Shown one piece after another: positions 31,835-62,796 of a DNA stretch of 64,000 nucleotides (positions within the stretch are counted from its first letter, which is position 1; the number at the start of each line of letters is the position of its first letter). Origin of the DNA: an uncultured delta proteobacterium (GTDB lineage: Bacteria > Desulfobacterota > Syntrophia > Syntrophales > UBA2185); contig CAVSPA010000005.1 of the NCBI GenBank assembly GCA_963729715.1, positions 64,001-128,000 on the forward strand. Direction: 5' to 3'. A program made the position numbers and the translations under genes. The notes under the pieces were generated by a model, which saw only the letters and a program-made list of their open reading frames with translations, did not search any database and was not told the origin of the DNA.

Positions 31835-31911
31835 GCCCCCGTAGCTCAGGCGGATAGAGCAACGGATTCCTAATCCGTGTGCCGCGTGTTCGAGTCACGC
31901 CGGGGGCACCA
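31835..31911 (+). tRNA. tRNA-Arg(CCT)
   Basis: Acceptor GCCCCCG/CGGGGGC-ACCA, D arm TAGCTCAG..GATAGAGC, anticodon arm ACGGA-TTCCTAA-TCCGT, TTCGAGT loop. Confidence 0.97.
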
Positions 31912-31925
31912 ATAATATCGAGTAG

Positions 31926-36052: not shown

Positions 36053-36054
36053 GT

Positions 36055-36495: not shown

Positions 36496-37066
36496 AGAAT
36501 ATAAACTTCCTGCTGTATTTGTGCCGCTGTATAGCAAGTATATGAAACCGTACGGTTGTCGTTTCGTGGATCCCGGGGTTTTCCCCGCTTTGTGTGATCT
36601 GCTGGATCTGCTTGCCAACGAGGGCAACTGCCCGTCCGTAGTTCTTAAAAAGTATGCTAACGACGTAGCAAAAGCCTTGAGTACGGTCACGCTGTTACAG
36701 CACTCAATCAATGTCACGGAGAATTTAGCAACTCAATACAGGAGGTATTATCACCATGATCTCGACTTCAGATTTTGCGTCCCGCTGATTCTATTTGCAG
36801 GCCTGGGCCACGACCTTGGGAAAATACCCAAATATGTAACATCATGGCAGAGCAGGTTCCGGCACCCCGAGGTAAGCGCTGATATCATCTTAAACATGTT
36901 GGATAAATACAATGCCGACCCGCCATGGAAATTGATGCTTCTGAGGGCTATCAGGCATCATCACGCCCCGATCGGGGATGACAGGCTGACTGCATGGCTA
37001 TGTAAAGCCGACCGAGAGGCCCGTCAAGACGAACTTTGGAAAGCAACAGGAAGTGGTTCAATATGA
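36482..37066 (+). CDS. HD-domain protein (short paralogue)
   Basis: QHSINV, GHDLGK, HPEVSA, AIRHHH, KADREAR. Confidence 0.8.
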   Translation: MSTDKEYKLPAVFVPLYSKYMKPYGCRFVDPGVFPALCDLLDLLANEGNCPSVVLKKYANDVAKALSTVTLLQHSINVTENLATQYRRYYHHDLDFRFCVPLILFAGLGHDLGKIPKYVTSWQSRFRHPEVSADIILNMLDKYNADPPWKLMLLRAIRHHHAPIGDDRLTAWLCKADREARQDELWKATGSGSI

Positions 37067-45235: not shown

Positions 45236-45239
45236 AAAA

Positions 45240-47183
45240 ATGAAGATATCCACCATTCTTGACCAGATTGATCTTGGAACGATTGCGCTTCCCCATTTCC
45301 AGCGTGGTTTTGTCTGGAATCGTGATCAGGTTAAAGGACTCATCAATTCACTCTACAAGAGATTCCCTATCGGAAGCCTCCTCATCTGGGTCACACCTTC
45401 GGAGGGTGCGCCCACGCGTGGCGAAGGGCCGGTATCGCCGGGGGTTGTTAATCTTTTACTGGATGGACAACAGAGAATAACCTCTCTTTATGGCATCGTT
45501 CGCGGGAAGCCTCCAATGTTTTTTGAGGGCGATGAAAAGGTATTCACAGGACTCTATTTTCATATAGAGGACCAGGTCTTTGAGTTTTACATGCCCATGA
45601 AGATGAAGGACGATCCTCTCTGGGTCAATGTGACGCAGCTTGTGCAAAAAGGTGCTGCCACAGTCTTCGGCTCATTAATGACAAAATTGGAAACTGAAGA
45701 CAAAAGGACTCAGTGTCTTGCCCGTCTCAATGCTATCGACCAAATCAAAGAGATTGAACTATACGATGAAAAAATCACAGGACAGGATATGTCTATTGAC
45801 ATTGTTGTTGATATTTTCAACCGGATAAACTCCGGTGGCACAAAACTCTCAAAGGGTGACCTTGCCCTGGCAAAGATATGCGCCACATGGCCCGAGGCGA
45901 GGACTGAAATGAGAAAGAAGCTTAAAAAGTGGAAAAATGTGGACTTTCAATTCACCCTCGAATGGCTGCTGAGAAATGTAACGACTTTACTTACCGGCGA
46001 GGCCTATTTCTCGAGCTTAAAAGATGTTGATACGCATACTTTCAAAAATGGGCTCATCGAGGCGGAAAAAAGGATTGACGCTCTTCTGAACCTGATTTCA
46101 TCACGCCTGGGGCTTGACCATGACAGAGTGCTCGGCGGTCGGGGCGCCATACCCCTCATAACACGGTATCTCTCCCAGCATGGCGACAAACACCCGGATC
46201 ATATCGAGAGGGATAAGCTCCTCTACTGGTATGTTCATACGTTCTTATGGGGCAGATATGCAGGATCAACCGAGAGTGTGCTTGCCCAGGATTTGACATT
46301 CATAGAAAAAAAGGATGGTGCATTGGATCGTTTAATCGACAGCCTGCGCAAAATAAGAGGAGACCTCACGATTAAAGAACAGGATGTGAGCGGATGGAGT
46401 ACCGGTGCGCGGTTCTATCCGCTGCTGTATCTTTTAACGCGGGTCGGCGGCGCCAGGGACTGGGGCAGCGGCGTCGAGCTATCCGGGTTCATGCTTGGCA
46501 AATTAAGCGCCCTTCAGGTTCATCACATTTTTCCCAAGGCCGTTCTCTACGAAAATAAGTTCGACCGATCAGAGGTGAATGCCGTTGCGAATTTTACATT
46601 TCAGACACAGGAAACAAACCTCTGGATTGGAAAGAAACTTCCTGAAAAATACTTTAGGGACATCGAAGAGAAGCACCCTGGCACCCTGCAAACGCACTGG
46701 ATACCGATGGATAAAGACCTGTGGACGGTGGATGGATATCGTGACTTTCTGAAAGAACGAAGAAAGCTCATCGCGCAGGCGGCAAACAACTTCCTGGAGA
46801 GTCTTCTCCACGGAAAGATACCTGAATCGAAGATTGTGGAAGATATAATGCTCAGAAAAGCTGTGGCTGTTCCTGTAAAACTGATTACCGATGAGGAAGA
46901 AGACTTGCTTTTGGAGTGTGCAGTATGGGTAGAAAAACAGGGGTTACCCTCGGCAGAAATCGAATACGAGTTGTGTGATGATACAGGCAACCTGCTCGCT
47001 GTTCTGGACCTTGCGTGGCCGGAGGGTATGCAGCCGGGTCTCAGCAAACCCGTTGCTCTCCTTTTTAATGGCGGGAGAGATGTTGAGCAGATACTAAACC
47101 AGAAGGGATACATCTATTTCACTTCAGCCGATGAGTTGAAGGAATATGTACAAGGTGAGATTCTCAAAGGAGAGAATGCTTAA
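45240..47183 (+). CDS. DUF262 (GmrSD-like, ParB/Srx fold) protein with HNH-like and extra C-terminal domain
   Basis: FQRGFVW, LLDGQQRITS, FNRINSGG, VHHIFPK...VANF. Confidence 0.88.
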   Translation: MKISTILDQIDLGTIALPHFQRGFVWNRDQVKGLINSLYKRFPIGSLLIWVTPSEGAPTRGEGPVSPGVVNLLLDGQQRITSLYGIVRGKPPMFFEGDEKVFTGLYFHIEDQVFEFYMPMKMKDDPLWVNVTQLVQKGAATVFGSLMTKLETEDKRTQCLARLNAIDQIKEIELYDEKITGQDMSIDIVVDIFNRINSGGTKLSKGDLALAKICATWPEARTEMRKKLKKWKNVDFQFTLEWLLRNVTTLLTGEAYFSSLKDVDTHTFKNGLIEAEKRIDALLNLISSRLGLDHDRVLGGRGAIPLITRYLSQHGDKHPDHIERDKLLYWYVHTFLWGRYAGSTESVLAQDLTFIEKKDGALDRLIDSLRKIRGDLTIKEQDVSGWSTGARFYPLLYLLTRVGGARDWGSGVELSGFMLGKLSALQVHHIFPKAVLYENKFDRSEVNAVANFTFQTQETNLWIGKKLPEKYFRDIEEKHPGTLQTHWIPMDKDLWTVDGYRDFLKERRKLIAQAANNFLESLLHGKIPESKIVEDIMLRKAVAVPVKLITDEEEDLLLECAVWVEKQGLPSAEIEYELCDDTGNLLAVLDLAWPEGMQPGLSKPVALLFNGGRDVEQILNQKGYIYFTSADELKEYVQGEILKGENA

Positions 47184-47215
47184 TGCAAATAAATTGCTAA
47201 ACTGAAGAGGCATGG

Positions 47216-50200
47216 ATGTCTTTACCTGATGAAAAAACCTATGTGGAAATCCCTTTTATCAAGCAGCTAAAAGGGATGGGATGGCAGCACATCGAAGGCG
47301 ATATTGATGTGCCCTATCTAACAGAGAGGGAAAGTTTCCGCGACGTTTTACTGACTGACAGACTCCGGCAGGCGTTAAGGAACATAAACCTCACTGAAAA
47401 GGGCGAACCCTGGCTCGATGACCATCGCATCAACCAGGCCATCAGCAGACTGGAGCGGATCAGTTCCCCGAAACTCATGGAGGCCAATAAAGAGGCTTCT
47501 GAATATATTCTTCGGGGTGTTGAGGTCGATGGGCATCCCGTGTTGCACGGAGGTAAAGACAAGACAGTCAGCCTCATTGATTTTGATCATCCCGACCGGA
47601 ACGATTTCCTTGCAATCAATCAATTCCGCGTTGATCTGCCTGGTGGAAAGACCTTTATTACCCCCGATATGGTGCTTTTCGTCAATGGCATCCCCCTCGT
47701 CGTTATTGAATGCAAAAGCCCGAAACTCACTAACCCTATGGAAGAGGGCATCAATCAGCTCCTCAGATATTCCAATCAGCGACAGGCCGTGGAGGAAGAG
47801 GAAGGGTGTGAAAGACTCTTTTATTTCAACCAATTCCTCGTCAGCACTTACCGACAGGAAGCCCGTGCTGCTACAGTAGGGGCAGGTTATGAGCACTACA
47901 TGGAGTGGAAGGATACGAGCCCTCTTCCTATGAGTGTTGTAGCGAAGGAATTGGGGAAAAAGGAGCTGAACAGTCAGGACGTGCTCATAGCCGGGATGCT
48001 CCGGAGAACGCATCTTCTCGATATCGTCAGAAACTTTATTCTCTTTGACGAAAGAGACGGCAAACAGGTGAAGATGCTCTGCCGGTATCCGCAGTTCCGG
48101 GCAGCGCAAAGGGCGATCGAGCGCTTGAGGACGGGCAAAACGAGAAAAGAAGACGGTGATGCGGACCAGCGCGGCGGCATCATCTGGCATACCCAGGGCT
48201 CCGGGAAGAGCTACACGATGGTGTTCCTCGTCCGGAAGATGAGAACCCTCGATGACCTGAAAGACTTCAAGGTCGTTATCGTTACGGACAGGGTTCAACT
48301 TGAAGGTCAGTTAAAGGGGAGCGCGGCCCTTGCCGGTGAGACGGTTTATCATGCCGACAGCAAAGACAGGCTTGCAGCGTTGATGCGGGATACAAGCTCC
48401 AACATCGTCTTCACGATGGTGCAGAAATACCAGGACCGTGAGACGCCCGTGTCCGAGGACTATGAAGTCCCGGAATATGAAATGCTCAAGGCGGCCGCGT
48501 CAGAAGAGAAAAAGAGCGAATACAAACTTCCCCCCAAACCGATTATATTCCCCATCTGGAACGCTTCGGAGAAAATTCTGATTCTCACCGACGAGGCACA
48601 CAGATCGCATACGAGCATGCTGCATGCGAACATGATGCGGGCGCTTCCCAATGCAGTAAATATTGGATTCACGGGAACACCGATTATCGCGGGTAAAGGA
48701 AAGAAGACTTACGAAATCTTCGGCGATTACATTGATCGCTACACGATTGAAGAGTCACAGCGGGACGGGGCGACTGTCAAAATCCTGTATGAAGGACGGA
48801 AGGTTAATGCCAAGGTCGAAGACGGGAGAACGCTCGACCAGTTCTTTGATGATATGTTCCGGTCGAAGACCGAAGAAGAAAGAGAGGCCATAAGACGAAG
48901 ATATGGCAATGTGGAGAATATTCTTGAGTCGCTGAATCTTGTCCAGGCGAAGGCGGAGGATATGCTTCTCCATTACGCAGCAAACACTCTGCCCAGCGGT
49001 TTTAAGGCCCAGGTGGTCGCGGTGAGCCGAAAAGCCGCCATCCGCTACTATGAAGCTTTTTCCAAGGCAAAGGAAAAGCTTTTGAAGAGGATCGAAATCC
49101 TTGATCCGAGGCTGTTTCGCCTTTCCGAGGATGAACAGAAAAACCTCGACGAAGAGACACGCTTTCTGATGATTGCCGCAAAGCAGAAAGATATTCTTCA
49201 AAAACTTGAATTTGCCGCGATTATTTCCGGCGACCATAACGACCCGCCCCACTACAAACAGCATACGGACAAGAGCACACATGAGGTCCTTGTCGGAAAG
49301 AATGGGAGATTCAAGAAATCCTTCAAAGAAGACACGCTTGCCGTCATTATTATAAAGAGCATGCTGCTTGTCGGGTTTGACGCCCCCGTTGAACAGGTCA
49401 TGTATCTTGACCGCTTCATGGAAGGCCACGAACTCCTTCAGGCGATTGCCCGGGTAAATCGCTGCCGCAATGGAAAGACGCATGGTCTCGTGGTGGATTA
49501 CTATGGGGTAGGCGCCCGTCTTACGGAAGCCCTCGCCATGTACGCACAGGAGGACATCAAGGGTGCGCTTATCAATGTCAAAGACGAACTCCCAAAGCTT
49601 GAAGATCGCCACCGGAGGGTGTTGGAGCTGTTTCATAGCCGTGATATTGAGGATCTCACAGATGTGGAGGCCTGCGTTAACCTGTTGCGGGATGTGGAGA
49701 TCAGAGCCGAATTTATTCGGTGTGTTGGTGACTTTGCCGAGAGCATGGATGTGATCATGCCACGCCCCGAGGCCCTTCCCTATGTCTATGATTTGAAACT
49801 CCTCGGATTCATCAACAAGACCGCTGCCAACCGGTACCGCGATTCACAACTCAATATTGCCGGGGTGGGCGACAAGGTAAAAAAACTGCTCGATGAACAC
49901 ATTGTGGCACAGGGGGTTGATCCGAAAGTTCCGCCCATATCCATCTTCGATGAAAACTTTGAGAAACAGGTTGATGCGCTGAAGTCCAGGAAGTCCCAAG
50001 CGTTGGAGATGGAACATGCGGCAAGGTTCCATATTCAGAAACATTATAACGAAGACCCTGCATTGTACAAGAAACTAAGCGAAAGGCTCAAAGAGATTCT
50101 GGATGCCTTCGGAGAAAACTGGGATGCCCTCGTAGAAGAATTGAGGAAATTTATCAGAGAAACCAGGGCGGGGCGAAAAGAGGATGAAACAGGTTTGGAT

Positions 50201-50494
50201 CCCAAAACCCAGGCGCCGTTCTTGGGCATCCTGGTCGATGAATATGGAAAGCCAGCGGCGGATAAGAAAATGAAGGAATTCTGCGAAGCCGTCATCGAAA
50301 TCGTGGAACATGTAAAGCAGGAGATTGGCCTCCAGGATTTCTGGCGTCGGAAACACGCGCAGAATCTTTTGAGAACATGGATCATCAACGAGATAGACGA
50401 CAGAAATATCGTTCCTTATGAAAAAATCCACCGTATTGCGGATCGATTTATCGAACTTGCGAAAACGTTGCATCTGCGTTTGGTAAAGTCATGA
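47216..50494 (+). CDS. hsdR: Type I R-M restriction subunit
   Basis: PDMVLFVNGIPLVVIECK nuclease, HTQGSGKS, DEAHR, FTGTP, QAIARVNR. Confidence 0.96.
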   Translation: MSLPDEKTYVEIPFIKQLKGMGWQHIEGDIDVPYLTERESFRDVLLTDRLRQALRNINLTEKGEPWLDDHRINQAISRLERISSPKLMEANKEASEYILRGVEVDGHPVLHGGKDKTVSLIDFDHPDRNDFLAINQFRVDLPGGKTFITPDMVLFVNGIPLVVIECKSPKLTNPMEEGINQLLRYSNQRQAVEEEEGCERLFYFNQFLVSTYRQEARAATVGAGYEHYMEWKDTSPLPMSVVAKELGKKELNSQDVLIAGMLRRTHLLDIVRNFILFDERDGKQVKMLCRYPQFRAAQRAIERLRTGKTRKEDGDADQRGGIIWHTQGSGKSYTMVFLVRKMRTLDDLKDFKVVIVTDRVQLEGQLKGSAALAGETVYHADSKDRLAALMRDTSSNIVFTMVQKYQDRETPVSEDYEVPEYEMLKAAASEEKKSEYKLPPKPIIFPIWNASEKILILTDEAHRSHTSMLHANMMRALPNAVNIGFTGTPIIAGKGKKTYEIFGDYIDRYTIEESQRDGATVKILYEGRKVNAKVEDGRTLDQFFDDMFRSKTEEEREAIRRRYGNVENILESLNLVQAKAEDMLLHYAANTLPSGFKAQVVAVSRKAAIRYYEAFSKAKEKLLKRIEILDPRLFRLSEDEQKNLDEETRFLMIAAKQKDILQKLEFAAIISGDHNDPPHYKQHTDKSTHEVLVGKNGRFKKSFKEDTLAVIIIKSMLLVGFDAPVEQVMYLDRFMEGHELLQAIARVNRCRNGKTHGLVVDYYGVGARLTEALAMYAQEDIKGALINVKDELPKLEDRHRRVLELFHSRDIEDLTDVEACVNLLRDVEIRAEFIRCVGDFAESMDVIMPRPEALPYVYDLKLLGFINKTAANRYRDSQLNIAGVGDKVKKLLDEHIVAQGVDPKVPPISIFDENFEKQVDALKSRKSQALEMEHAARFHIQKHYNEDPALYKKLSERLKEILDAFGENWDALVEELRKFIRETRAGRKEDETGLDPKTQAPFLGILVDEYGKPAADKKMKEFCEAVIEIVEHVKQEIGLQDFWRRKHAQNLLRTWIINEIDDRNIVPYEKIHRIADRFIELAKTLHLRLVKS

Positions 50495-51216
50495 GAAATA
50501 AATTTACAACTGAGGGCATAGAGTATTCTATAAAAAGAACCGGAAGAACATCCTTGGGAATCTCGGTCGAACGGGATGGGACCGTTATTGTAACTGCGCC
50601 CCAAGATGCGGATTCAGCGGCGATAACAAAATTTGTTTCCAGCAAACGTCTATGGATTCATCAGAAACTTGCCTATAAAATCCAAACGAACAAGGAAAAA
50701 ATTCATCGTGATTTCGTCAACGGGCAAGGGTTCTTGTACCTCGGAAAAAGTTATCGACTGAAGTTGATGAAAAATGGCGATGGCAGGGATTCTGTCAAAA
50801 AATCGGACGGATCACATCTTTTGCGTTTCAACCATGGCCATTTTGAACTTCCAGAGAACGAGCAGGCACGTGCGCGCGAACACTTTATTAAATGGTATAA
50901 AAAGCAGACTGAACAGCAAATGAGACTTAGAATCCTCCGCTATGACAAGCGGGTTGGAGCTGAGGTGCAATGCATCCGGGTCTTGGATCTGGGCAATCGA
51001 TGGGCGTCATGCGGGGATAAGGGCACTTTGAATTTCAACTGGCGCACCGTTATGGCCCCCGTCTGGGTTTTCGATTATATCCTGGTTCACGAGATGGCGC
51101 ACATGCTTCAGAAAGGCCATACGAAGGATTTCTGGCGTCTTGTATCGCGGGTGATCCCCGATTACGAGGAGCACAAAGCCTGGCTGCAGGAACACGGCGT
51201 GGAGATGGATATTTGA
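50491..51216 (+). CDS. M48/YgjP (DUF45) zinc metallopeptidase-like protein
   Basis: RWASC, DYILVHEMAH, HTKDFW; ATGA overlap with hsdR. Confidence 0.9.
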   Translation: MRNKFTTEGIEYSIKRTGRTSLGISVERDGTVIVTAPQDADSAAITKFVSSKRLWIHQKLAYKIQTNKEKIHRDFVNGQGFLYLGKSYRLKLMKNGDGRDSVKKSDGSHLLRFNHGHFELPENEQARAREHFIKWYKKQTEQQMRLRILRYDKRVGAEVQCIRVLDLGNRWASCGDKGTLNFNWRTVMAPVWVFDYILVHEMAHMLQKGHTKDFWRLVSRVIPDYEEHKAWLQEHGVEMDI

Positions 51217-51349: not shown

Positions 51350-54300
51350 GTGCAATGGATGGCTACAAAATATAAAGGTGGCGACGAGGTTCAGTGCATA
51401 AGCGATCCATCGTTAATAGGCACTGTCGTTCAAATTCGTGAGCTACATAACGATATCCAGTACTATCTCGTCAACTTCGGCCCCGCTGGACGAACGGTCA
51501 AGCCGGAAGTTGACCTACGGCCGTTTGTTCCTGATCCCACTCCGTATGATAACCTTGTCAGGGGGAATATCGATTCCTACCAGGAATTTCAAAGGCTAAT
51601 CACCTACCAAAGGATCATACGGAGCCAGCCTCTCGATAATAATATCTATGCCTTTAATGCGTCACGGACAAGATTCTTCCCCTATCAATTCAAGCCACTT
51701 TTAAAATTTCTTGCTTCACCCAGACATAGACTATTGATTGCCGATGAAGTTGGTCTTGGAAAAACAATCGAGGCCGGATTGATATTGACCGAACTTCGCG
51801 CACGCCGTGATGTGCAAAGAACTTTGATAGTATGTCCGGCAAATCTTACCGAAAAGTGGCAAATCGAACTCAAGAGACGCTTCGGTGAGAAATTCACTAT
51901 TTTAAATGCAAGACAATTCTTAAAGTTTATTGACGATTACGAACGAAGACCCGATGAAGAGAATTTAAATGGAATAATTTCTTTAGAATCCATTCGCAAG
52001 CAGACAATCTTTGATCGTCTGGAAGAAGTAGCCCCAAGTTTTGATTTCGTGGCCATTGATGAAGCACATCACATGAGGAACTTACAAACAAAACTGCGTA
52101 AAGTGGGCGTGTTGCTCAGTCGTAGCAGCGATGCGCTTCTAATGTTGACTGCAACACCTGTTCATTTGGGCAATGAAAATCTCTTCAGCCTTTTAAATAT
52201 TCTTGACGATGATGAATTTCCGGACTTTTTGACTGTGGAGAATAGAATACGCCATAATGAACCGATTGTAAAAACCCAGTTTTGTTTGGGCAGTATTCCT
52301 CCGAATGTGGAAGAAGCTATACGGTTAATAGAGTCAACAGGACAGTCTGAATGGATCAGAACCAATCCTCTCCGCAAAGAGATACTGGAATCATTGGCAC
52401 AATTGAGGTTAGCGCTCTCGGACAAAATTCAATCCAGGCAACTTGTTTTAAAAATGCAGCGGGATATTGCAGATTTAAATTTAATCGGTCATATTTTCAG
52501 TCGAACGCGGAAAAGGGATGTACAAGTACATTTCCCGTTGAGAAGGGCGTTCCCAATCCGCTTGAAATTCACTGAACTGGAAAAGCAGTTTTACGATACT
52601 GTAACAACCTATGTTCGTATGCACTCAGAACGTAATGTCGCAAATCCACAAATTCTAAGGTGGTTACTTAATATGCCGCAACGACGCATGGCGTCTTCTA
52701 TCCCAGCTATGGTTGAATTTTATCGGCAAAAATTTCTATCCGTCAGCCAAGATGTGTCGGAAGATAGTCCTTTTTCTGAGGATGATTTAAACAGTCAGTT
52801 GTTGCCGGAAGGTCGCTTTAAGGACGTAGAAACAACTTTAAGACTACTTGTGCAAAACTGGCCGGAAGAAGGGCAGGATACAAAATATGAGAAATTCATC
52901 GAAATATTGCGCGTAATGAAAAGGGAAGAACAATCGCTCAAAGTAATGGTTTTTGCTTTCTTTAAGGATACCTTAGGATATCTGAAGAAGCGGCTCACTG
53001 TTGATGGATTCAAGTGCGTCTTAATTAGCGGTGACGTTCCTCCAAATGAACGCACGAAATTGGTGGATACCTTCAGAGAGAAAAAAGACTTGGAGGTGTT
53101 GCTTTCTTCAAGAGTAGGTAGCGAAGGATTGGATTTTCAGTTCTGTGACACGCTTTTCAATTATGATCTTCCCTGGAACCCCATGGAGGTTGAGCAACGG
53201 ATCGGCCGCCTCGACAGAATCGGACAAGAATCCCCAACAATCAGAATATTTAATTTTTGGATCGAAGGAACTATCGAGGAGCGGATTCTTGGAAGGCTGT
53301 ATGAGAGGATTAATATCTTTGAGAAGTCGATAGGGGAGTTGGAATTAATACTTGGAAAGGAGGTCAGTAACATTGAGAAAGAGCTATTAATCAAGAAACT
53401 CACAGCTGAGGAAGAAGAGAAGATTATAGAAAATAAATTCAAAGTAATTGAAACGAGAATGCATCAACTGAAAACATTAGAAACGGAGGCCGCACAGTTT
53501 ATTGGAACAGATCAATATTTCGATGAAGAAGTGAAGAGGATCAGACTCCACAGACGGTATATCACGAGCGAACAGATGTACCGGTTCATCCTTGATTATC
53601 TCAAAACAAATTGTCCGCGGACACGCTTAGAGTATGATCAATCAAGTAATCGAGGCTCAATCTTTCCCGACAACAACTTGCAGTCAACATTGCTTAAATA
53701 TGCAGGGGCTTCCTCTGCAACCCGTTATATAAGTTCGCCTCATGATGGCGTACCGATTACTTTTGATTCACAGATCGCCTTTGATTTACCGAATGTTGAT
53801 TTTATCAATGTCTTGCACCCCATTACCCAGGCGATCGTCCGGAATTACGAAGATGCAGGAGGACTTCAATCCAACGTGCATCATGTGGTTCTGAATACAG
53901 ATGCATTGCTTAAAGGATTCTATCTATATTTCATTTTCAAACTTAAGGTCAAAGCAGCGCGAAGCAATAATACAATAGAGATGATTATTTTGGATAAAGA
54001 TCTTAAAGTTGCATGTACTGATGATGATGCCGAAATTATCCTCGGGGATATGGTAGAAAGAGGCTTCGATGCCAAACAATCATGCGAGGTTAAGCCAGAT
54101 ATTTTAGATCAAGCGTACAAAGATGCAAAATCTATTTTTCACGAACGTGTTGAAAAAATACGCAAGGATGCAGAAAGAAACAATGATGCCTTCTTAAATC
54201 TTAGGTTGGAGAGCCTTCAATCATCATACGGGAAGAGTATAAAAATGAGGTCTGATCTATTACAGCAAGCCAACGTGAAGAAGAGTCATGCACGGTATAT

Positions 54301-54430
54301 CAGGATGTTGGAGGGAACTATCAGAAGACTGGAAGCAGAAGTGGAGGCCAAGAAACGTAAACTCGAAGAGAATAGAACCGTAGGAGTTTCCTATGACGAA
54401 ATTGCTGCAGGAATTCTCGAAGTGGCTTAA
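51350..54430 (+). CDS. SNF2-family (RapA/DrmD-like) helicase/ATPase
   Basis: LIADEVGLGKT, DEAHH, LTATP, GSEGLDFQ, EQRIGRLDRIGQ; alternative ATG at 51359. Confidence 0.93.
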   Translation: MQWMATKYKGGDEVQCISDPSLIGTVVQIRELHNDIQYYLVNFGPAGRTVKPEVDLRPFVPDPTPYDNLVRGNIDSYQEFQRLITYQRIIRSQPLDNNIYAFNASRTRFFPYQFKPLLKFLASPRHRLLIADEVGLGKTIEAGLILTELRARRDVQRTLIVCPANLTEKWQIELKRRFGEKFTILNARQFLKFIDDYERRPDEENLNGIISLESIRKQTIFDRLEEVAPSFDFVAIDEAHHMRNLQTKLRKVGVLLSRSSDALLMLTATPVHLGNENLFSLLNILDDDEFPDFLTVENRIRHNEPIVKTQFCLGSIPPNVEEAIRLIESTGQSEWIRTNPLRKEILESLAQLRLALSDKIQSRQLVLKMQRDIADLNLIGHIFSRTRKRDVQVHFPLRRAFPIRLKFTELEKQFYDTVTTYVRMHSERNVANPQILRWLLNMPQRRMASSIPAMVEFYRQKFLSVSQDVSEDSPFSEDDLNSQLLPEGRFKDVETTLRLLVQNWPEEGQDTKYEKFIEILRVMKREEQSLKVMVFAFFKDTLGYLKKRLTVDGFKCVLISGDVPPNERTKLVDTFREKKDLEVLLSSRVGSEGLDFQFCDTLFNYDLPWNPMEVEQRIGRLDRIGQESPTIRIFNFWIEGTIEERILGRLYERINIFEKSIGELELILGKEVSNIEKELLIKKLTAEEEEKIIENKFKVIETRMHQLKTLETEAAQFIGTDQYFDEEVKRIRLHRRYITSEQMYRFILDYLKTNCPRTRLEYDQSSNRGSIFPDNNLQSTLLKYAGASSATRYISSPHDGVPITFDSQIAFDLPNVDFINVLHPITQAIVRNYEDAGGLQSNVHHVVLNTDALLKGFYLYFIFKLKVKAARSNNTIEMIILDKDLKVACTDDDAEIILGDMVERGFDAKQSCEVKPDILDQAYKDAKSIFHERVEKIRKDAERNNDAFLNLRLESLQSSYGKSIKMRSDLLQQANVKKSHARYIRMLEGTIRRLEAEVEAKKRKLEENRTVGVSYDEIAAGILEVA

Positions 54431-55889
54431 AAAAGTAACAGGCTATGAAGAAAGCACAGGAGAACTTGGATCTGATCCAAAAGCGGAAGTGCAACTGGCA
54501 CAACCTATAAAGACAGAAGCCAGATCACCACTCATTCAAAAAAAGAGAGGAAAAGTCAACATCCAGGTAGGGCTTGATTTTGGCACTAGTGCGACTAAAA
54601 TTATGTATTCCCAACTGGGGCGGCGTGGTACCAAGATTGTAAGATTCAATCATTCACTACCAAATTATCCATCGTTTTGTCTCCCTTCTGTTGCCGCAAT
54701 CAATGACCAAGGCTGTCTTATTCTTGGGATTGAAGCCGCAAATTATCTCCTTAACAAAGAGTGGGATATTGGTTTTCAAAGGTTCAAGGTCATCGTCGCC
54801 GGTAACCATGACCATAACTTCCTTGACCGTGTTTCGAGTGAGAAATTTTATGAATACAGGCAGGCACACAGACTGGATGAAACTTTTACAGCAGAGAGAT
54901 TAACGGCACTTTATCTGGCCGACGTCATGAAAAAGACGAGAAATATTATCAGCGATTATCCTGAATATAGGGATATGGAAATTGACATGGCCTTTAATAT
55001 CTGCATACCCATTGATCACATACAAAATAGCCTGGTCAAATCAGAATTTGAGAAAATATTTCTCTGGGCTGAAAATATTGAGGGCCTTGGAGGGGCAGAA
55101 GATGCTGAATTTGATATTATTGAAGCATCATACCAACTTGAGAATAAACCCCTTGAAAACGAAAGGCGCGTCCATTCTGTTCCCGAAGCTGTGGCCTCTT
55201 TCGCCTCGTATCTTATTTCGTTGCGGCGGCAAGAGGGACTTCACGCGGTGATTGATATGGGTGCAGGAACAACGGACATATCGATTTGCAATCTCAAGGA
55301 TCCATATAATGAATCTATGAGTTATTGGTACGCGGCGCGCAATATTCCTTACGGAACGATAGGGATAGAGCGTTTTATTGCCGGTCAATTAAAAAAAGAA
55401 AAATCGGAATGCACTTGTCATAAAATTTTTAATTGTTTGAACAATATGTCAGGGAATTATAATGAGATGCAGAAAGAAATGGCGAGGAAGCTAAAGCAAT
55501 TCAAAGATTCAAAGGAATATGTCAAAACATGGGGAATGGCATATGGGCATTTGGCAGGGACAAGTCTATGGGAAAAAGTTGAGGTTTTTTTAAGTGGTGG
55601 CGGTGCTTATTTACCGGCTGCGAGGGATATATTTTCAGAACCATGGATTAAATTAACGGAAGGACAATCTGATAGGAAAGTTAAATATAACGTCAGTCCT
55701 CTACCAACCCCAGATGATTTCAATGATGCCGCAACCGGTGCTCCCTTTGGAAGAATGGCAGTAGCCTATGGTCTGACAAGACCGATTCCCGTACTGAGCG
55801 AATATGTTCTTCCAAATGATTCACCTGATCATACGCCAGTCAGGATCAGGAAAGTGCTACCTGATAGAGATGATCTTTATCCGAAATAA
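54393..55889 (+). CDS. Actin/Hsp70-fold ATPase without a DnaK substrate-binding domain
   Basis: VGLDFGTS, VPEAVA, VIDMGAGTTD, FLSGGGA, AVAYGL. Confidence 0.85.
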   Translation: MTKLLQEFSKWLKKVTGYEESTGELGSDPKAEVQLAQPIKTEARSPLIQKKRGKVNIQVGLDFGTSATKIMYSQLGRRGTKIVRFNHSLPNYPSFCLPSVAAINDQGCLILGIEAANYLLNKEWDIGFQRFKVIVAGNHDHNFLDRVSSEKFYEYRQAHRLDETFTAERLTALYLADVMKKTRNIISDYPEYRDMEIDMAFNICIPIDHIQNSLVKSEFEKIFLWAENIEGLGGAEDAEFDIIEASYQLENKPLENERRVHSVPEAVASFASYLISLRRQEGLHAVIDMGAGTTDISICNLKDPYNESMSYWYAARNIPYGTIGIERFIAGQLKKEKSECTCHKIFNCLNNMSGNYNEMQKEMARKLKQFKDSKEYVKTWGMAYGHLAGTSLWEKVEVFLSGGGAYLPAARDIFSEPWIKLTEGQSDRKVKYNVSPLPTPDDFNDAATGAPFGRMAVAYGLTRPIPVLSEYVLPNDSPDHTPVRIRKVLPDRDDLYPK

Positions 55890-56220
55890 AGGGTCTGCAA
55901 AATGAGACTTGGTGATGTCGTCAATTACTGGCGCATTTCATTTTTCCTTTGATCACTCCGCGTATAGCGGAGGGAAAGCTGCTACACAAGCGCATCTGCC
56001 ACGAATCGCTACTTCAATAATGGATATCCTCTTGGTAGAATCAAGGGTGTTGATAAATAGGCGTAACACACACAATCAAATATCCATGAAAAACGAATAT
56101 CTTTAAGAAAATGCATATTCTCTTAAATATATCATTTTAGGCCTTTAGAATATTGTTTCTTGGTGTAATCCGCAACCAAGGTATTCCAGCTCGCCTGATG
56201 AACTTAAAGGGAAGACATAA

Positions 56221-58050
56221 ATGAACGTGCTTAATCGTATCTTCTCTCGCATACTTGCAATAGTATCACGTGAAAAAGCCGAATCCACTGCAATCATAAA
56301 GTATCCATCTAAGGAACAACTAAAGACTAGGAATCATGAAATCGACGATAAAGATACCATAAAGGTGGCAAGTGCTCGCATTGTGTCAATGCCATTTCTG
56401 CCGTACGGCAGGAGAGATGATAAACAGTGCGACCATTCCAAGGAATATTGGAAGGCATACAACCAAGGATATTCATATTATAACCGTGGGTGGTATTCCA
56501 ATGCTAAAGAGATCTTGTTGACCATCTACAATGAAAATCATTCGTCAGGAGCATACTATACTCATCTTCTCAGGACATATAGAAAGCTTTCCTCGAAATA
56601 TATCGAGAAGAAGAAGTATAAGGAAGCTCTTTCGGCAATGGACGAGATGTTCTCTAAATGCCCAAACACAACAACAACGGACATTAGGAGCTACAATAAA
56701 ATCGTTGATATACTTAACGAAAAAGATAGCGGTGCTGGACTCTCGAAGAAAGAAATAGTTAAAGATACTAAACCTGATTGTATTATCGAGTCACAGTTTA
56801 TATCATTAGTTCAGACGGAGAAGAAACCGAAAGGATTCAAATCGTCACAAACTTCCGGTGATGATATTCTAAGGCTCCAAAATAGATCGCATCTGTTACC
56901 AACAAATCTTCCTCATATCAATTTTTCAAGAGGATCTATTGAGTACTTAAGTGCCTCCTCAATCCCATTTATCAGTGACGATTTGTACAGATTTAATGAA
57001 GCGCCTGATCGTAGTTGCTTTGTAAGCGCGACAAGAGACCTCTCGATTAAACTTTATGACTGGGATCTAATTTTGCAGAAGAGTTTCGATGCACGAACAT
57101 ATTGTAATGCACACTATAGCCTGAGAGACTTATCTATATCGCCCGATCTTTCACTTGTAGCATTTGTGTCGGAATCAAGGGCGTTTGTCTTGGATCACGA
57201 TTTCAGAGTAATTTCCAGATTAGGAACGCTCCCGAAAGAAGGATGGAAAAGAATAAGCAAGAATAAACCTAATGTCGAAGAGATCTTTTCTCGCCACTTA
57301 CGGATACTTGGAATCACTCAATCGAATCCCACTACCAATGAAATAAAATCGGCGTACCGAAGACTGGCTTTTGTATACCATCCAGATAAGAACCCTGATG
57401 GACCAAAGGCCACTGAGAGGTTCCAAGAGATAACTGCAGCCTATGAAGTTTTGACCAATGAAGATGCTAGGCGTGCTTTCGCGGGGTTGGATGATGAGGA
57501 AGAGTGGATACAAGTGCTCGATACCTTGAAGTTCGAGGCAGGTGGTGTGACATTTTCAGTAGAAATTTCTCTTGGCGGTGATGGTCGGGATTGGATTTAC
57601 GCTCTGGGGTTCACACCGGACTCAAAGCGGCTTTATCTCGGTTGCTACTCTGGGAAGGTGTACAGAGTGAGTCTTGATGGATGTGCAGATATAATCTATA
57701 CAATTCCGGAAGATAAAGAAAGTATCTACGGCGCAAGTAATCCGATTGATATGATCTTTCACGACAATGGATGTCTCTATATTGCTACTCATTGGTACCT
57801 CTATATTCTGAGAGGTGACGATGTCGTCGCATGCATGCAACGTCAAAGAGGAACGTACAAATGGTTCAAGGGGGGGTTCCTTTTTTATCAGGGTAATGCT
57901 TTGAATATTTTGTCCCCTAATGGTGAAAGCTTTGGAACTATTCAGTTCAAGAATAACATAAGAAACATAGCGTCCACGGATGATCTTCTCCTGGTGGAGA
58001 CCGGACTGAAATCTTTTTTGTTCCAAATGCATAAGATCGTTACACAGTAG
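56221..58050 (+). CDS. TPR-like + beta-propeller-like protein with internal DnaJ (J) domain
   Basis: ILGI...EIKSAYRRLAFVYHPDKNP...ERFQEITAAYEVL J domain; WD-like strands (LSISPD, LGFTPDS) on both sides. Confidence 0.85.
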   Translation: MNVLNRIFSRILAIVSREKAESTAIIKYPSKEQLKTRNHEIDDKDTIKVASARIVSMPFLPYGRRDDKQCDHSKEYWKAYNQGYSYYNRGWYSNAKEILLTIYNENHSSGAYYTHLLRTYRKLSSKYIEKKKYKEALSAMDEMFSKCPNTTTTDIRSYNKIVDILNEKDSGAGLSKKEIVKDTKPDCIIESQFISLVQTEKKPKGFKSSQTSGDDILRLQNRSHLLPTNLPHINFSRGSIEYLSASSIPFISDDLYRFNEAPDRSCFVSATRDLSIKLYDWDLILQKSFDARTYCNAHYSLRDLSISPDLSLVAFVSESRAFVLDHDFRVISRLGTLPKEGWKRISKNKPNVEEIFSRHLRILGITQSNPTTNEIKSAYRRLAFVYHPDKNPDGPKATERFQEITAAYEVLTNEDARRAFAGLDDEEEWIQVLDTLKFEAGGVTFSVEISLGGDGRDWIYALGFTPDSKRLYLGCYSGKVYRVSLDGCADIIYTIPEDKESIYGASNPIDMIFHDNGCLYIATHWYLYILRGDDVVACMQRQRGTYKWFKGGFLFYQGNALNILSPNGESFGTIQFKNNIRNIASTDDLLLVETGLKSFLFQMHKIVTQ

Positions 58051-59016
58051 CAGTGAAAAAGGCGTTAGCCAAAACAAGATATTTACATATGATACACAAT
58101 GCGTCTTCTTTTTCATGTCTAGGGAGGTGTTCTGAATGAAGATCAAGTCTTTAAGAATTAGGAATTTTAAAACGTTTGACGCTGAAGGCATTTCATTAAC
58201 TCTTATGGATTTAACAACATTTGTTGGAGAAAATAGCACCGGAAAATCGAACATCCTCGAGGCTCTCGATTTATTTTTTAATTTTAGCTCGACGAAAGTC
58301 TCAAAAGAATCATTTCACCATGATGACAATACGAAAGAAATATCAATCGAAATTGAATTTGGAGCGCTATCTGATCTGGAGAAAAAGAGATTCAAAATCC
58401 ATCTTAATGAAAAAAAAGAATTGGAAATAAAACAGATAATAAAATTGAGTTCTGAGGGAGCGGATGAGGATGATTCCAAGATAAAATATCAGGAGAGCAA
58501 GCATGGAACGAGATGGGAAGCAAACTCAGAATGGGCTAGATTAAGCCCAAAGCCGCCAAAGAAGACGGATATCAAATCTTGGTGGAAACAGGATTTGAAA
58601 ATAGGAGATTTTGATTTCAAAAGCCTATTTGAAAGAAAGGAAGGTGACCCTGATCCAGGAATCTACCAGGAAAAGCTTGAACAACTATGGGATGAGCATT
58701 TCGATAATATCCCGAAGCAAAAGAAAACCGAAGATGAAAAAGTTCTTGGCTGGAAAAATATATTGAAAGGGAATCTTCCAAAATATTTTTTTATCCCCGC
58801 AGTAAAGGATGTAAATGAGGACCTGAAAGTACTCAAAACCAATCCATTTGGAGAAATAATAGCTTGGCTCACTCAAAATATCACTGCTGAGATAGAAAAA
58901 GATTTTAAAACAAAAACTGAAGGAATTTTTAACGATGTGATGAAAACAGTTGATAAAGTGTCAGCGGTCGGATTAAAACCAGCCAGGGGGGGTCGGTTTA
59001 AACCCAGCCAGTTTTG

Positions 59017-59796
59017 TTATGAGTTTTCTTTACCATTTTCGCCTTGTGGATTGCAATCTTTGTTGCGCAGCCGGTAGCTTTTACCGACAATCTGAATAAT
59101 GTCGGCACGGCTGAGAAACCGGTCGAGAATAGCCGTGGCCGTGGGAACATCGCCGATCAGTTTTCCCCATTCATCCAGGGGTCGGTTGGAGGTCATGATC
59201 GTTGATCGTAATTCATACCGGCGCATGATGATCTCGAACAAGTACTCGCCAGCCTGCTTCGGCAGTTTTTTGAGTCCCATATCGTCGATGATGAGCAGGT
59301 CAGGCTTGAGATACTTGCGCAAGACCTTGGCACTCTCGTTCAACGCCTCGGCCTGATTCAGGTCACCCACGGTGTCAAAAATGGAACGGTACAGAACCAT
59401 ATATCCCATCTTTGCCGCCTGATGGCCTATGGCCTGGGCAAGGTGGGATTTACCGACCCCTGGAGGACCAGTGAACAGGATGTCCCTTTGTTCCCGGATA
59501 AACCGGCACGTGGCAAGCTCCATGATCTGCCTGCGTATTATGGACCGGTTGAAGGAGAAGTCGAAGTCCTCGATACTTCTTAACTCACGGAACTTCGAGG
59601 CGATCACCCTGCGTGCAATGGCCCTGTCCTCCCGGATGGCGATCTCATCGTTGACGATCAGTTCCAGGAACTCGGCGCAGCTGAGTTGATTGCCCGCCGC
59701 TTCCTGCAGTCGCACTTCCAGTGTGGACAGAAGTCCGGAGAGTTTAAGACGTTTCAGAGCGGATTTAAGTTGTGGATTCATCTTCATTCCTTTCAT
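59017..59796 (-). CDS. istB: IS21 helper ATPase IstB
   Basis: FDFSFN, GPPGVGKS, LLIIDDMG, TSNR, AILDR. Confidence 0.96.
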   Translation of the reverse strand: MKGMKMNPQLKSALKRLKLSGLLSTLEVRLQEAAGNQLSCAEFLELIVNDEIAIREDRAIARRVIASKFRELRSIEDFDFSFNRSIIRRQIMELATCRFIREQRDILFTGPPGVGKSHLAQAIGHQAAKMGYMVLYRSIFDTVGDLNQAEALNESAKVLRKYLKPDLLIIDDMGLKKLPKQAGEYLFEIIMRRYELRSTIMTSNRPLDEWGKLIGDVPTATAILDRFLSRADIIQIVGKSYRLRNKDCNPQGENGKENS

Positions 59797-61366
59797 CGAT
59801 GGCTTTGAACGATACGGTCATAAAATGCTGATACTCCGTCAAGGGGCGGATGATCTCGTGTTCTTCTGCGAAATCGGGTTCTGTCTGATCCGTGCGCTTG
59901 ATCAGTTCGCGCAACGGGCGAAGCCGGAACATGTGGGCGGAAAGAGCGGTCTTGCTGGCTCGATTGATGGCCGGGGCCGGATATTTCTTTGCCAGACCGA
60001 CAAAGCCCAGCAACACCCGGACTCCTTCGATTCCGCGTTCTTTGAGCATGGCCCTGGCCCATTCGGCTGCATGATAGCCGATCCGGCTCGCCCGGGATAA
60101 CAGGTGCTCCACGCCACGCTCTACAGCCGATATCTTCTCGTCGGCGAGATGTACACGGCTGGTGTTGAACCGACCCGGAGCGACCCTGGAATGCACCGCG
60201 ATCTGCTCGAACCGCCCGTTGAACACCCGAACCAAACGGGAGTCCCAGCGGACCCATACTTCCCGGCCCAGGTACTCCGGCGGGACAGAGTAATAACCTT
60301 TGGCCACTTCCACATGGCCGTCACGATGTACCTGGCGCTTGCCCTCGTGGTAAAAGGGAAAGGGCTCCAAGGGTAGCGGCTGCAACGCAGCCTGCTCCTC
60401 TTTGAACATCCGGCGAACCTGTTTCTTCGTCGTGCCGTGGATCCGGGTGTCCGCCACGTTCGTCTCCCACTCGGCAAGGAAGCTCTTCTCTTCAGCCAGA
60501 GAAGAAAATATTCTGCCTTTGAGGGCGTTGTTCTTTACATATTTGATCCCGCTCTCGATCTTGCCCTTGTGCCGTGGCGTATATGGTTTTGTGGGAAGAA
60601 TGACGCATCCATAATATCTGGCAAACTCCACCACTTTCGGGTTGAGATCGGGATCGAACCAGTCGGCGTTCTTCACCGCGGCCTTCAGATTATCGATCAC
60701 CATGGTTTTCGTGACCCCTCCAAAATGCCGGAAGGCGTTCTCTATGGCGCGGATGAAATCCTCCGTGGTTTGTCTGAAGACCGGCTCAGAGTAGCTCTTG
60801 CGGGAGTGGGAAAGCGTAACGCGAAGCACGTGGGATCGGCGCTTCTTCCCCCCCTCGATGATCCATGCACCTGAGCCGAAATCAACCTGGACCTCGGCAC
60901 CGGGATCCGATTCCATGCGGCGGAAAGGTAAGGGTGTAGATGCGCCGAGCTTTTGTACAAACCGTTTGACCGATGAGTACGAGCCTGTGAAACCGTGTTC
61001 GGAAGTTACGTCCTGGAGGATACGCTGGGCGGACAGGCCTTGTTCCAGCTTGGCCTTGACGACATCTCGGAACGACTCACACTCGCTGGGTCTGCCAGGA
61101 GACCGCCCCGAAGACGGGAAGAACAGATTCGCAAGTAATCCCCCCTCGGACCCGGCGGTCGAAATGGCTGGGTTTGGCATGTCTGGACAACCAGAGCCGG
61201 GGGCCACAATGGCGGGTTTTGACTCCCGATTACGCCGTAACCTGTCATAACGGGCAACCGTCTCCCGGTCCACACCCAACTCGCGGGCAATGCGCCGGTG
61301 CGGCCATTTCTTTTCAAGTAAGCCTATGATTGCGTGTATTTTAGCCATTTTCAGTATGTTTGCCAT
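59765..61366 (-). CDS. istA: IS21 transposase IstA
   Basis: HTH RRIARELGVDRETV, QVDFG, IDNLK, KGKIES; ATG at 61366 after AGGAGG. Confidence 0.96.
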   Translation of the reverse strand: MANILKMAKIHAIIGLLEKKWPHRRIARELGVDRETVARYDRLRRNRESKPAIVAPGSGCPDMPNPAISTAGSEGGLLANLFFPSSGRSPGRPSECESFRDVVKAKLEQGLSAQRILQDVTSEHGFTGSYSSVKRFVQKLGASTPLPFRRMESDPGAEVQVDFGSGAWIIEGGKKRRSHVLRVTLSHSRKSYSEPVFRQTTEDFIRAIENAFRHFGGVTKTMVIDNLKAAVKNADWFDPDLNPKVVEFARYYGCVILPTKPYTPRHKGKIESGIKYVKNNALKGRIFSSLAEEKSFLAEWETNVADTRIHGTTKKQVRRMFKEEQAALQPLPLEPFPFYHEGKRQVHRDGHVEVAKGYYSVPPEYLGREVWVRWDSRLVRVFNGRFEQIAVHSRVAPGRFNTSRVHLADEKISAVERGVEHLLSRASRIGYHAAEWARAMLKERGIEGVRVLLGFVGLAKKYPAPAINRASKTALSAHMFRLRPLRELIKRTDQTEPDFAEEHEIIRPLTEYQHFMTVSFKAIDERNEDESTT

Positions 61367-62796
61367 GTACACCTCCTTCTTAAGGAGGCATACAATATTC
61401 GCAACATCCTTTAAATGGCTGGGTTTGATTCGACCCTAAGTGGCTGGTTTTGACCGACCGCTAACAATAAAGATATTAATGGTAAATCGAAGATTGCTTT
61501 TTTAAATGAACAATTAAATGCTAATCTTGGGGTTAATTTGGAATGCAAGCTGGAATTGAAATTTGGTATACCCCTGATGTCAGAAATTATTTTCCCCTCT
61601 CCTCAGTTATATGCTGACGACGGTTATTATTCGTTAGTTGATTTAAAAGGAAATGGTCTTCAGAGGTTATGCATTATTTCTCTTTTAAGGACATATAATG
61701 ATATAAAGAGACGTACAGAAAATGTAGAACGTAACGTTATAATTGGGATCGAAGAACCAGAAATATATTTACACCCACCGGTTAAGAGAGCAACTTACAA
61801 ATTATTGCGATCATTATCTCAAAGAAGAGATCAGATTATTTATTCAACTCACGACAGTTATTTTGTGTCTGTGGAACATTTTGATGAGTTAAGACTATTT
61901 AAGAAATTGAAAGTGGAAAAGCCAGTAACAAAAATTTATGAATTTGGTATTGATGAATTGGTTAAGTACTATGAAACATGCCATAAGAAAACCGTGGACG
62001 AAAAGAGTCTGAGACACAGATTTGCTCACATCTGCGATGAAACAAAAAATGAAGGCTTTTTTGCTAATAAAATAGTTTTGATTGAAGGTGATACGGAAAA
62101 ATATGCCTTACCAATTTATTTTAATCATGCTGGCTTTGATGTAGATAATGAAAGAGTAGCGATAATATCAGCAGGATCTGTCGATAATATCAGTTACTTA
62201 TATGCTATTTTTAATGAATTCCATGTGCCTTGCTTCGTAATATTTGATGGGGATAAACCAAAAATTGACTTTGAGGAATTAAAGAAAAAGGAAAACGAAA
62301 AAAAGCGAGAGGAGATATTAGGAAAGAGTCGGAGGAATAAGGAGTTATTAGGATTTGTGGGCGAAACATTTGATGAAAAAACTGAATACCTTTTCCCTCC
62401 AACTACGATAAAAGAAAAATATGCTGTTTGGGAAAAAGATTTTGAGGAAACCTTTCACAGGTCTGTCGATATTTATGAGAACATAAAAGGCGAAGCGACT
62501 AAATTATACGGAACGACGAGCAAGCCTCTGGCGGGCAGGTATTTTGCATCCGAATTAGTGGCAAAATATCCAGGTAAGATAAGTCCATATGTAAATGAAT
62601 TAATCAAAAATATAAAATCATGTATATGGACTAATTCATGCCTTATGAAATAAAGAACGGCTCGGTTGTAATATCGTAATTAGTGCGTCTATCTTTTCTA
62701 GGCTGCGTACGTATAGTAGTATTTAGAGTAGTTGTGACGTTCTTTTCTTATGGAATAAAATCAAATGGTGAAGGTTGTGCCTAAGAGGAGGAACTG

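What the first reader, a model, noticed from the sequence alone, without database searches (positions are those of the whole stretch)
51350..58050. Candidate undescribed defence system: SNF2 helicase + Hsp70/actin-fold ATPase + J-domain propeller protein
Seen: inside a defence island, a 1026-aa SNF2 ATPase overlaps by 38 bp a 498-aa protein that has all five actin/Hsp70 nucleotide-binding motifs but no DnaK substrate-binding domain. After a 331-bp gap comes a 609-aa protein with an intact HPD J domain. The last two both start with amphipathic-looking helices (MTKLLQEFSKWLKKV, MNVLNRIFSRILAIV). Known: J domains stimulate Hsp70 ATPases through HPD, and SNF2 ATPases occur in DISARM and some BREX types, whose other genes are absent here. 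Inference: a chaperone-like switch in which the TPR/propeller senses a phage protein, the J domain fires the dedicated ATPase, and this controls the translocase or the adjacent nucleases. I recognise no named system with this composition.
Basis: partly seen in the sequence, partly recalled or inferred. Interest (0 to 1): 0.88.

Follow-up and report, generated by a model that had tools for sequence, protein, structure and literature searches.

The report
SNF2 motor with Hsp70-like ATPase partner
Two of the three flagged genes, a DNA-motor protein and a stripped-down Hsp70-type ATPase, travel together as a fixed pair in many bacteria and are a credible but untested anti-phage module, while the third gene, a J-domain protein, looks like an unrelated neighbour.

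Summary
All three genes are real. The three-gene system is not supported; the unit is a two-gene pair: a RapA/DrmD-like SNF2 ATPase plus an Hsp70 nucleotide-binding-domain protein with no substrate-binding domain (Z 26 to BiP, catalytic residues invariant). Of 76 loci with the Hsp70-like gene, 68 have the SNF2 adjacent, in either order; the other 8 are cut off by contig ends. None of the 76 has a J domain. Four distant relatives of the J protein lie elsewhere, and the ATPase lacks the residues on which J domains dock. The paired SNF2s form one clade, and their nearest relatives in my sample pair instead with a sacsin/Hsp90-like (Tiamat-like) ATPase. Neighbours hit defence models at 47 of 112 versus 4 of 29 in a control. 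Best model: the Hsp70-like protein, with a variable N-terminal sensor, is an ATP switch that gates a DNA translocase against phage or plasmids. Function and binding are untested. I found no name for the pair in PADLOC, NCBIfam, Pfam or my paper searches. This scan has reported the same pair at least ten times on other DNA.

The parts
51350..54430 (+). RapA/DrmD-like SNF2 ATPase (core gene 1); probable start ATG 51359; Walker A GLGKT 135-139, DEAH 237-240, motif VI QRIGRLDR 616-623, RapA-like C-terminal region
   Evidence: PADLOC DrmD PDLC02623, 540 bits full length; below DrmD and RapA cut-offs; RapA is the closest solved sequence
54393..55889 (+). Hsp70-type nucleotide-binding-domain ATPase without substrate-binding domain (core gene 2); amphipathic N-terminal helix, disordered linker to about residue 50, core 54-470, conserved Pro-rich C-terminal tail
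55890..56220 (.). 331-bp intergenic gap separating the pair from the J gene; no promoter or terminator signal above chance
   Evidence: 19 promoter-like versus 17.3 expected; 4 terminator-like versus 4.8 expected
56221..58050 (+). Class C J-domain protein: helical repeats plus WD40-like propeller with an inserted HPD J domain; independent island cargo, not part of the pair
58136..62653 (+). OLD-family ATPase-TOPRIM nuclease gene, in two pieces (58136-58958 and about 61467-62653) because of an IS21 insertion
58959..61466 (-). IS21-family element (istA, istB) with terminal inverted repeats and a 6-bp target duplication
41332..51216 (+). Type I R-M operon (hsdM, hsdS, GmrSD-like, hsdR, YgjP) directly upstream; higher GC (0.44-0.50) than the pair (0.42)
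31864..33125 (.). Left end of the integrative element: 48-bp repeat at the tRNA-Arg(CCT) 3' end and a tyrosine integrase; the second copy of the repeat lies 54.5 kb away, beyond the window

Best explanation
The SNF2 gene and the Hsp70-like gene form a two-gene mobile module, most likely for defence against phages or plasmids; the J-domain gene is a separate passenger on the same island and probably works with the host's DnaK. SHOWN: strict linkage in both gene orders; a dedicated SNF2 clade; intact ATPase motifs in both proteins; highly variable N-termini on the Hsp70-like protein (19-436 residues before the core: amphipathic helix, cold-shock domain, WD40 propeller); defence-rich neighbourhoods; stand-alone copies on plasmids. 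INFERRED: (1) the two proteins bind; (2) the variable N-terminus senses infection or tethers the complex (here to the membrane), and the Hsp70-type ATP cycle, with the conserved C-terminal tail standing in for the Hsp70 linker, is the switch; (3) the switch releases or loads the SNF2 motor on double-stranded DNA; (4) no nuclease was detected in either protein, so the motor acts as RapA does, displacing RNA polymerase or other complexes from invader DNA or stalling the cell, or it feeds whichever nuclease the island provides. Odds: functional pair about 0.93; defence role about 0.65; this switch mechanism in detail about 0.35.
For: 68 of 76 ATPase loci have an adjacent same-strand SNF2 (61 upstream, 7 downstream); the 8 exceptions are at contig ends or on short contigs. 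Reverse test: the four best SNF2 matches among 401 genomes (897-1398 bits) all have the ATPase next door. Paired SNF2s are monophyletic, 41 of 41, support 0.94. Pairwise identities of the two genes correlate, Spearman 0.85, permutation maximum 0.24; this shows co-inheritance only. Catalytic residues match DnaK K70, E171, D194 and T199. Neighbours: 47 of 112 hit PADLOC at 1e-12 versus 4 of 29 non-island genes of the window; by my tally 35 of 49 loci have such a neighbour, of many unrelated types (R-M I, II, III, BREX, Gabija, Azaca, Hma, AbiE, Druantia- and ARMADA-like, CRISPR). Stand-alone plasmid copies. Related SNF2s are essential in tested systems: ArmA (PMC12458937) and IetH (PMC13069673). 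The nearest SNF2 relatives in my sample pair with a Tiamat-like Hsp90-type ATPase.
Against: No experiment on the pair. No fusion found (weak evidence). No recognisable effector domain in either protein. 14 of 49 loci had no defence-model neighbour among the genes scanned. Island location also fits any mobile cargo. The control set is small (29 genes from one genome). Several loci are near-duplicates, so 76 overstates independence, and the profiles used for scoring were partly built from the same loci. The family is rare: 4 of 401 genomes in this phylum.
Confidence: 0.6

Rival explanations
1. One reading: a three-gene chaperone switch in which the TPR/propeller senses a phage protein and its J domain fires the dedicated Hsp70-like ATPase.
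For: Adjacent, same strand, similar GC (0.41-0.42); intact HPD; both proteins start with amphipathic helices. The contexts of the closest J homologues (P0121 92%, P0122 67%) could not be fetched, so a local trio in very close relatives is not excluded.
Against: 0 of 76 ATPase loci have a J domain (the same profile finds the window's J gene and two other J proteins in this genome). Other genes occupy the downstream slot in close relatives: GmrSD in L002, ADP-ribosylglycohydrolase in L004. J relatives stand alone on three repABC plasmids and in G067. J-docking determinants are missing. The genome has a canonical DnaK.
Confidence: 0.05
2. The pair is an accessory booster that works only with a host R-M, BREX or ARMADA-like system, for example by clearing or remodelling DNA for its nuclease.
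For: It sits at the tail of R-M operons here and in L001, L030 and L046, and inside methylase + YprA helicase + UvrD arrays in L042, L049, L054 and L063. It has no effector domain of its own.
Against: Partners differ in every lineage; stand-alone copies exist on plasmids L092 and L094.
Confidence: 0.2
3. Not defence: a mobile-element or stress function, such as RNA polymerase recycling, DNA repair or nucleoid remodelling on foreign DNA.
For: RapA is the closest solved relative. Some loci are flanked by housekeeping genes (L017, L029, L036).
Against: Threefold excess of defence-model neighbours; patchy distribution; rapidly swapped N-terminal domains.
Confidence: 0.12
4. The actin-fold protein is a filament-forming scaffold or effector (ParM/MreB-like) rather than a monomeric switch.
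For: Actin superfamily fold, MreB Z 22.3 and BeeR Z 23.1; the membrane-type N-terminal helix recalls MreB and FtsA (recalled).
Against: Hsp70 domains score higher (Z 24-26); the Hsp70-type lysine K132 is invariant.
Confidence: 0.08

Closest known systems
DrmD (DISARM class 1), BrxHII (BREX type 3), ArmA (ARMADA), IetH (IetHAS): RapA-like SNF2 defence helicases
   Same: Same SNF2 kind and size; full-length match to PADLOC DrmD model PDLC02623 (540 bits here, over 1000 bits in distant members). ArmA and IetH need their Walker motifs for protection (passages of PMC12458937 and PMC13069673).
   Different: Below the NCBIfam DrmD cut-off (354 versus 610); no DrmA/B/C, PglX, YprA or IetAS genes here. 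The constant partner is an Hsp70-type ATPase that the searched main texts of these papers do not mention.
SNF2 + Tiamat-like (sacsin/Hsp90-type GHL ATPase) neighbourhoods (bioRxiv 10.64898/2026.09.30.754977, section 23 read)
   Same: The nearest SNF2 relatives in my sample, same gene order and tight coupling, with a chaperone-derived ATPase as partner.
   Different: The partner fold is actin/Hsp70, not GHL. No PD-(D/E)xK, HNH or Swt1-HEPN domain was detected in the window's pair, whereas L099 of the sacsin clade carries an N-terminal Swt1 HEPN.
DnaK/Hsp70 chaperones; Hsp70-like CnuD of CoCoNuT type III
   Same: Nucleotide-binding-domain fold and catalytic residues. CoCoNuT shows Hsp70-like domains recruited to defence (PMC11090510, passages).
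   Different: No substrate-binding domain, a deletion in subdomain IIB relative to DnaK, no J-docking arginine, no McrB GTPase; CnuD motifs are described as degenerate, these are invariant.
PADLOC candidate PDC-M61 (protein B)
   Same: Weak match around the DxGxGT motif (31 bits, 64 of 588 positions), recurring in 11 of the relatives scanned.
   Different: No full-length match in any member; no PDC-M61A among the listed SNF2 hits. The composition of PDC-M61 could not be read (not in the main text of 10.1101/2024.01.29.577857; supplements closed).
Class C J-domain proteins (for the 609-aa gene)
   Same: Internal J domain with HPD.
   Different: The J domain is inserted into a propeller. Small family (15 full-length clusters; one 51-member Atlas cluster at TM 0.61), seen on plasmids and islands.

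Membership tests
DISARM class 1 | DrmD above the curated cut-off | tested here: not met
   NF038317 353.8 bits versus 610
DISARM class 1 | DrmA, DrmB, DrmC and DrmMI in the operon | tested here: not met
   genes 41332-63999 scanned; none is a Drm partner
ARMADA I/II | YprA helicase and PglX-like methylase with the SNF2 (plus UvrD in type II) | tested here: not met
   absent in the window; present around the pair only in L042, L049, L054, L063
BREX type 3 | BrxHII with BrxC, PglZ and a methylase | tested here: not met
   partial BrxH hits only; no BrxC or PglZ in the scanned genes
RapA | NCBIfam RapA cut-off | tested here: not met
   258 versus 576 bits
Tiamat / Tiamat-like | GHL (sacsin) ATPase | tested here: not met
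   partner has the actin/Hsp70 fold; no TmtA hit
PDC-M61 | full-length match to PDC-M61A and B | tested here: inconclusive
   short motif match to B only; SNF2 list shown to 25 of 45 rows
Hsp70 (DnaK-type) | nucleotide-binding domain with catalytic K70, E171, D194, T199 | tested here: met
   K132, E265, D288, T293
Hsp70 (DnaK-type) | substrate-binding domain | tested here: not met
   protein ends about 35 residues after the last core helix; model shows none
Hsp70 (DnaK-type) | J-domain docking site (R167 and contacts in the substrate-binding domain) | tested here: not met
   R167 column is Phe 59%, Arg 2%; P419 and D477 lie in the missing domain
Hsp70 (DnaK-type) | ATP hydrolysis | not testable with these tools
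   needs an assay
Class C J-domain protein | J domain with HPD outside the class A/B architecture | tested here: met
   0 of 16 family members hit a Shango model at E 0.1; J-less relatives were not collected
Anti-phage defence system (any) | mutation-sensitive protection | not testable with these tools
   context only

The most novel reading that the evidence does not exclude
One lineage of RapA-like SNF2 motors is run by an exchangeable chaperone-derived ATPase switch: an Hsp70 nucleotide-binding domain in this branch, a sacsin/Hsp90 ATPase in the neighbouring branch. The Hsp70 branch would be an autonomous, nuclease-free immune module that senses infection through swappable N-terminal domains and strips proteins from DNA. 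It would be a bacterial, convergent counterpart of eukaryotic remodellers (SWI/SNF, INO80), in which actin-fold subunits regulate a SNF2 motor.
Probability: 0.3. Interest if true: 0.82.

Novelty: new variant of a known kind. Interest (0 to 1): 0.55.

Why it matters
The pair is a compact, clonable two-gene candidate from a large unannotated family (1912 representatives at 50% identity with E below 1e-10) that no library searched here names. If it protects against phage, it would show how RapA-like SNF2 motors, essential but unexplained in DISARM, BREX, ARMADA and IetHAS, are switched on, in a system with only one partner. It would also be a case of an Hsp70 ATPase working without substrate domain or J protein. 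The negative result matters too: experiments should target two genes, not three.

Tried and rejected
Complex prediction of SNF2 residues 500-1026 with ATPase residues 48-498: no verdict (score 0.00, mark 0.32); only the C-terminal half of the SNF2 was sent, and this counts neither way. Search for SNF2-ATPase fusions among longer proteins: none (weak). Sequence search of the PDB with the ATPase: nothing significant. ATPase profile A1 in viral contigs: none; one copy was later found through the SNF2 (L114). J family in viral contigs and phage records: none; full-length query against plasmids none at 1e-20, C-terminal part three records. Promoter and terminator scan: at chance level. Viral fold library: only generic Hsp70 and actin matches. 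Atlas on homologue P0068: unnamed clusters, one with HSP70 on 12% of members. Eight weak loci (L057, L066, L067, L069, L071, L072, L074, L075; under 80 bits) were dropped before the count of 76; L067 is a true member cut at the contig end. The first tree held a long-branch helicase (L004, Azaca-like) inside the clade; it and 12 near-duplicates were removed. A possible relic of the DnaK linker in the C-terminal tail (DxTP at a similar spacing) was considered; the profile alignment did not place it there, so it is not claimed. Paper searches that found no description of the pair. Subscription journals and bioRxiv supplements were not searchable; large candidate tables in supplements (PADLOC candidates, ARMADA, domain-centric screens) were not read and could list it.
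Full report
Observation. The SNF2 has intact motifs and is RapA-like: RapA is the closest solved sequence, PADLOC's DrmD model PDLC02623 matches end to end at 540 bits, and NCBIfam DrmD and RapA scores are below cut-off. The 498-aa protein has almost no library annotation (weak FtsA and PDC-M61B hits). Its model (pLDDT 88) matches Hsp70 nucleotide-binding domains best (BiP Z 26.4; MreB 22.3). Alignment to the genome's own DnaK maps invariant K132, E265 and D288 and near-invariant T293 onto the DnaK catalytic residues. The 609-aa protein is helical repeats plus a WD40-like propeller with an HPD J domain inserted. All lie in a 54.5-kb element bounded by a 48-bp repeat at tRNA-Arg, with an integrase, a type I R-M operon, GmrSD, an OLD nuclease split by IS21 and an Mre11-like gene.

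Co-occurrence. I collected 84 loci for the ATPase and kept 76 scoring at least 80 bits. In 68 the SNF2 is adjacent on the same strand, 61 upstream and 7 downstream. Of the other 8, five begin at the contig edge and three have under 450 bases on one side. No locus has a J domain or a J-family gene: 0 of 76, 0 of 36 with at least 2.3 kb downstream, while the same profile finds three J proteins in the window's genome. Genomes G272, G265 and G401 carry the pair but only generic J domains. Among 401 genomes of the phylum the J family was found only here and, broken, in G067, which had no ATPase match. Three plasmid relatives with HPD sit among repABC, toxin-antitoxin and relaxase genes with neither core gene within the stretch fetched. 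Limits: the contexts of the 15 full-length J homologues could not be fetched; several loci are near-duplicates; the profiles were partly built from these loci.

Why the J model also fails mechanistically. In DnaK the HPD motif contacts R167, the linker and the substrate-binding domain (P419, D477) (PMC8215388, passages). The ATPase has Phe or His at the R167 column (Arg in 2% of 149 sequences) and no substrate-binding domain. The host has a normal DnaK, the default partner of such a J protein (inference).

Reverse test. With a SNF2 profile, 18 of 401 genomes matched. The top four (897-1398 bits) all have the ATPase next door; in G327 it is split in two ORFs. The next 11 (590-637 bits) do not: nine are followed by a sacsin-domain, Tiamat-like ATPase, one by a fragment of it, one by a type IIG R-M gene. 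Of 29 viral-collection loci, one had the Hsp70-like partner and eight the sacsin partner. Of nine plasmid records, four had the former, three the latter, and two were not fetched. In a tree of 70 SNF2s the 41 Hsp70-paired ones are monophyletic (support 0.94), next to the sacsin-paired ones (joint node only 0.64; L143 falls between them; the outgroup was whatever the profile retrieved). The Tiamat preprint lists Swi/Snf helicases among Tiamat neighbours (section 23 read), so that branch is partly catalogued; its text has no Hsp70 mention.

Context. 47 of 112 neighbour proteins hit PADLOC models at 1e-12, against 4 of 29 non-island genes of this window. The systems are of many kinds and none is constant. 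In four loci the pair sits within a methylase, RecD-like, YprA-helicase and UvrD array that resembles ARMADA II; this may be why a PADLOC DrmD model fits the family so well (inference). On two cyanobacterial plasmids the pair stands alone, once just after a CRISPR-cas cluster. The ATPase N-terminus ranges from 19 to 436 residues and includes cold-shock and WD40 domains, the pattern expected of a swappable sensor (inference).

Mechanism. Most likely the ATPase is a nucleotide switch bound to the SNF2, gating its loading or activity on double-stranded DNA in response to infection. The output is displacement of RNA polymerase or replication proteins, or hand-over to a co-resident nuclease. Precedent: Hsp70- and Hsp90-like NTPases are proposed as switches in other conflict systems (10.64898/2026.10.19.760177, passage); IetH, a DrmD-like SNF2, is needed for protection and restrains toxicity (PMC13069673, passages); the C-terminal region of RapA and BrxHII is described as a degenerate nuclease fold (PMC12839542, passages). 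That actin-fold subunits regulate eukaryotic SNF2 remodellers is recalled; such complexes appear only as titles. Binding, ATPase activity and protection are all untested.

Literature seen. Search listings only. Term-search passages: 10.1101/2024.04.30.591980, PMC11090510, PMC12458937 (plus outline and abstract), PMC3710099, 10.64898/2026.09.30.754977 (plus section 23), 10.1101/2025.09.30.679545, PMC12839542, PMC13069673, PMC8215388, 10.1101/2024.01.29.577857 (no term found), 10.64898/2026.10.19.760177. No supplements were read. None of these passages describes the pair.

Earlier scan notes. The pair was reported at least ten times on other genomes, the sacsin pair at least eight times, and a J-in-propeller protein once. 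They agree with what I found before consulting them but are not independent evidence. What this locus adds is the negative test of a J-domain partner and the link between the Hsp70-paired and sacsin-paired SNF2 branches.

Verdict. Observation confirmed; three-gene system not supported; two-gene module real, unnamed in what I searched, probably defensive. New variant of a known kind, interest 0.55.

Noticed in passing
window 58136-62653: OLD-family nuclease gene interrupted by a single-copy IS21 (58959-61466) with a 6-bp target duplication; the two pieces are in one frame, so the insertion looks recent.
   Followed up: yes
window 31835-33125 and G000:C5:150328-150375: 54.5-kb integrative element at tRNA-Arg(CCT) with a 48-bp direct repeat and a tyrosine integrase.
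   Followed up: partly
window 56221-58050; L151, L152, L153, L083: J domain inserted into a beta-propeller: a small mobile family, also in a Peribacter record and on Rhodobacterales repABC plasmids near replication, toxin-antitoxin and relaxase genes. It may recruit host DnaK for the element; worth its own study.
   Followed up: partly
L099-L107, L110, L115-L120, L122, L127, L143, L145, L147, L150: SNF2 (about 1200 aa in many, Swt1-HEPN at the N-terminus of L099) coupled to a sacsin/Tiamat-like ATPase; more common than the Hsp70 pair in this phylum (about 11 versus 4 of 401 genomes).
   Followed up: partly
L042, L049, L054, L063 (also L030, L043, L044, L053, L021): The pair, often with a RecD-like PDC-S68 gene, sits inside ARMADA II-like arrays; PDC-S68 is within two genes of the ATPase in seven loci.
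   Followed up: partly
L017:470-2710; P0265, P0266, P0268: Hsp70-like ATPases fused to N-terminal WD40 propellers; L058 has a cold-shock domain; L029, L031, L032, L036 have about 400-residue unannotated N-termini and reversed gene order.
   Followed up: no
window 62797-63999 and G000:C5:128056-131559: Mre11-like phosphoesterase followed by a 1167-aa ORF that begins like an SMC/Rad50-type ATPase, just downstream on the island.
   Followed up: no
window 35585-38265: Two HD-domain genes and two small unannotated genes near the island's left end.
   Followed up: no
window 39529-40773: IS110 transposase with an identical copy on contig C7 and a 91% copy on C4.
   Followed up: no
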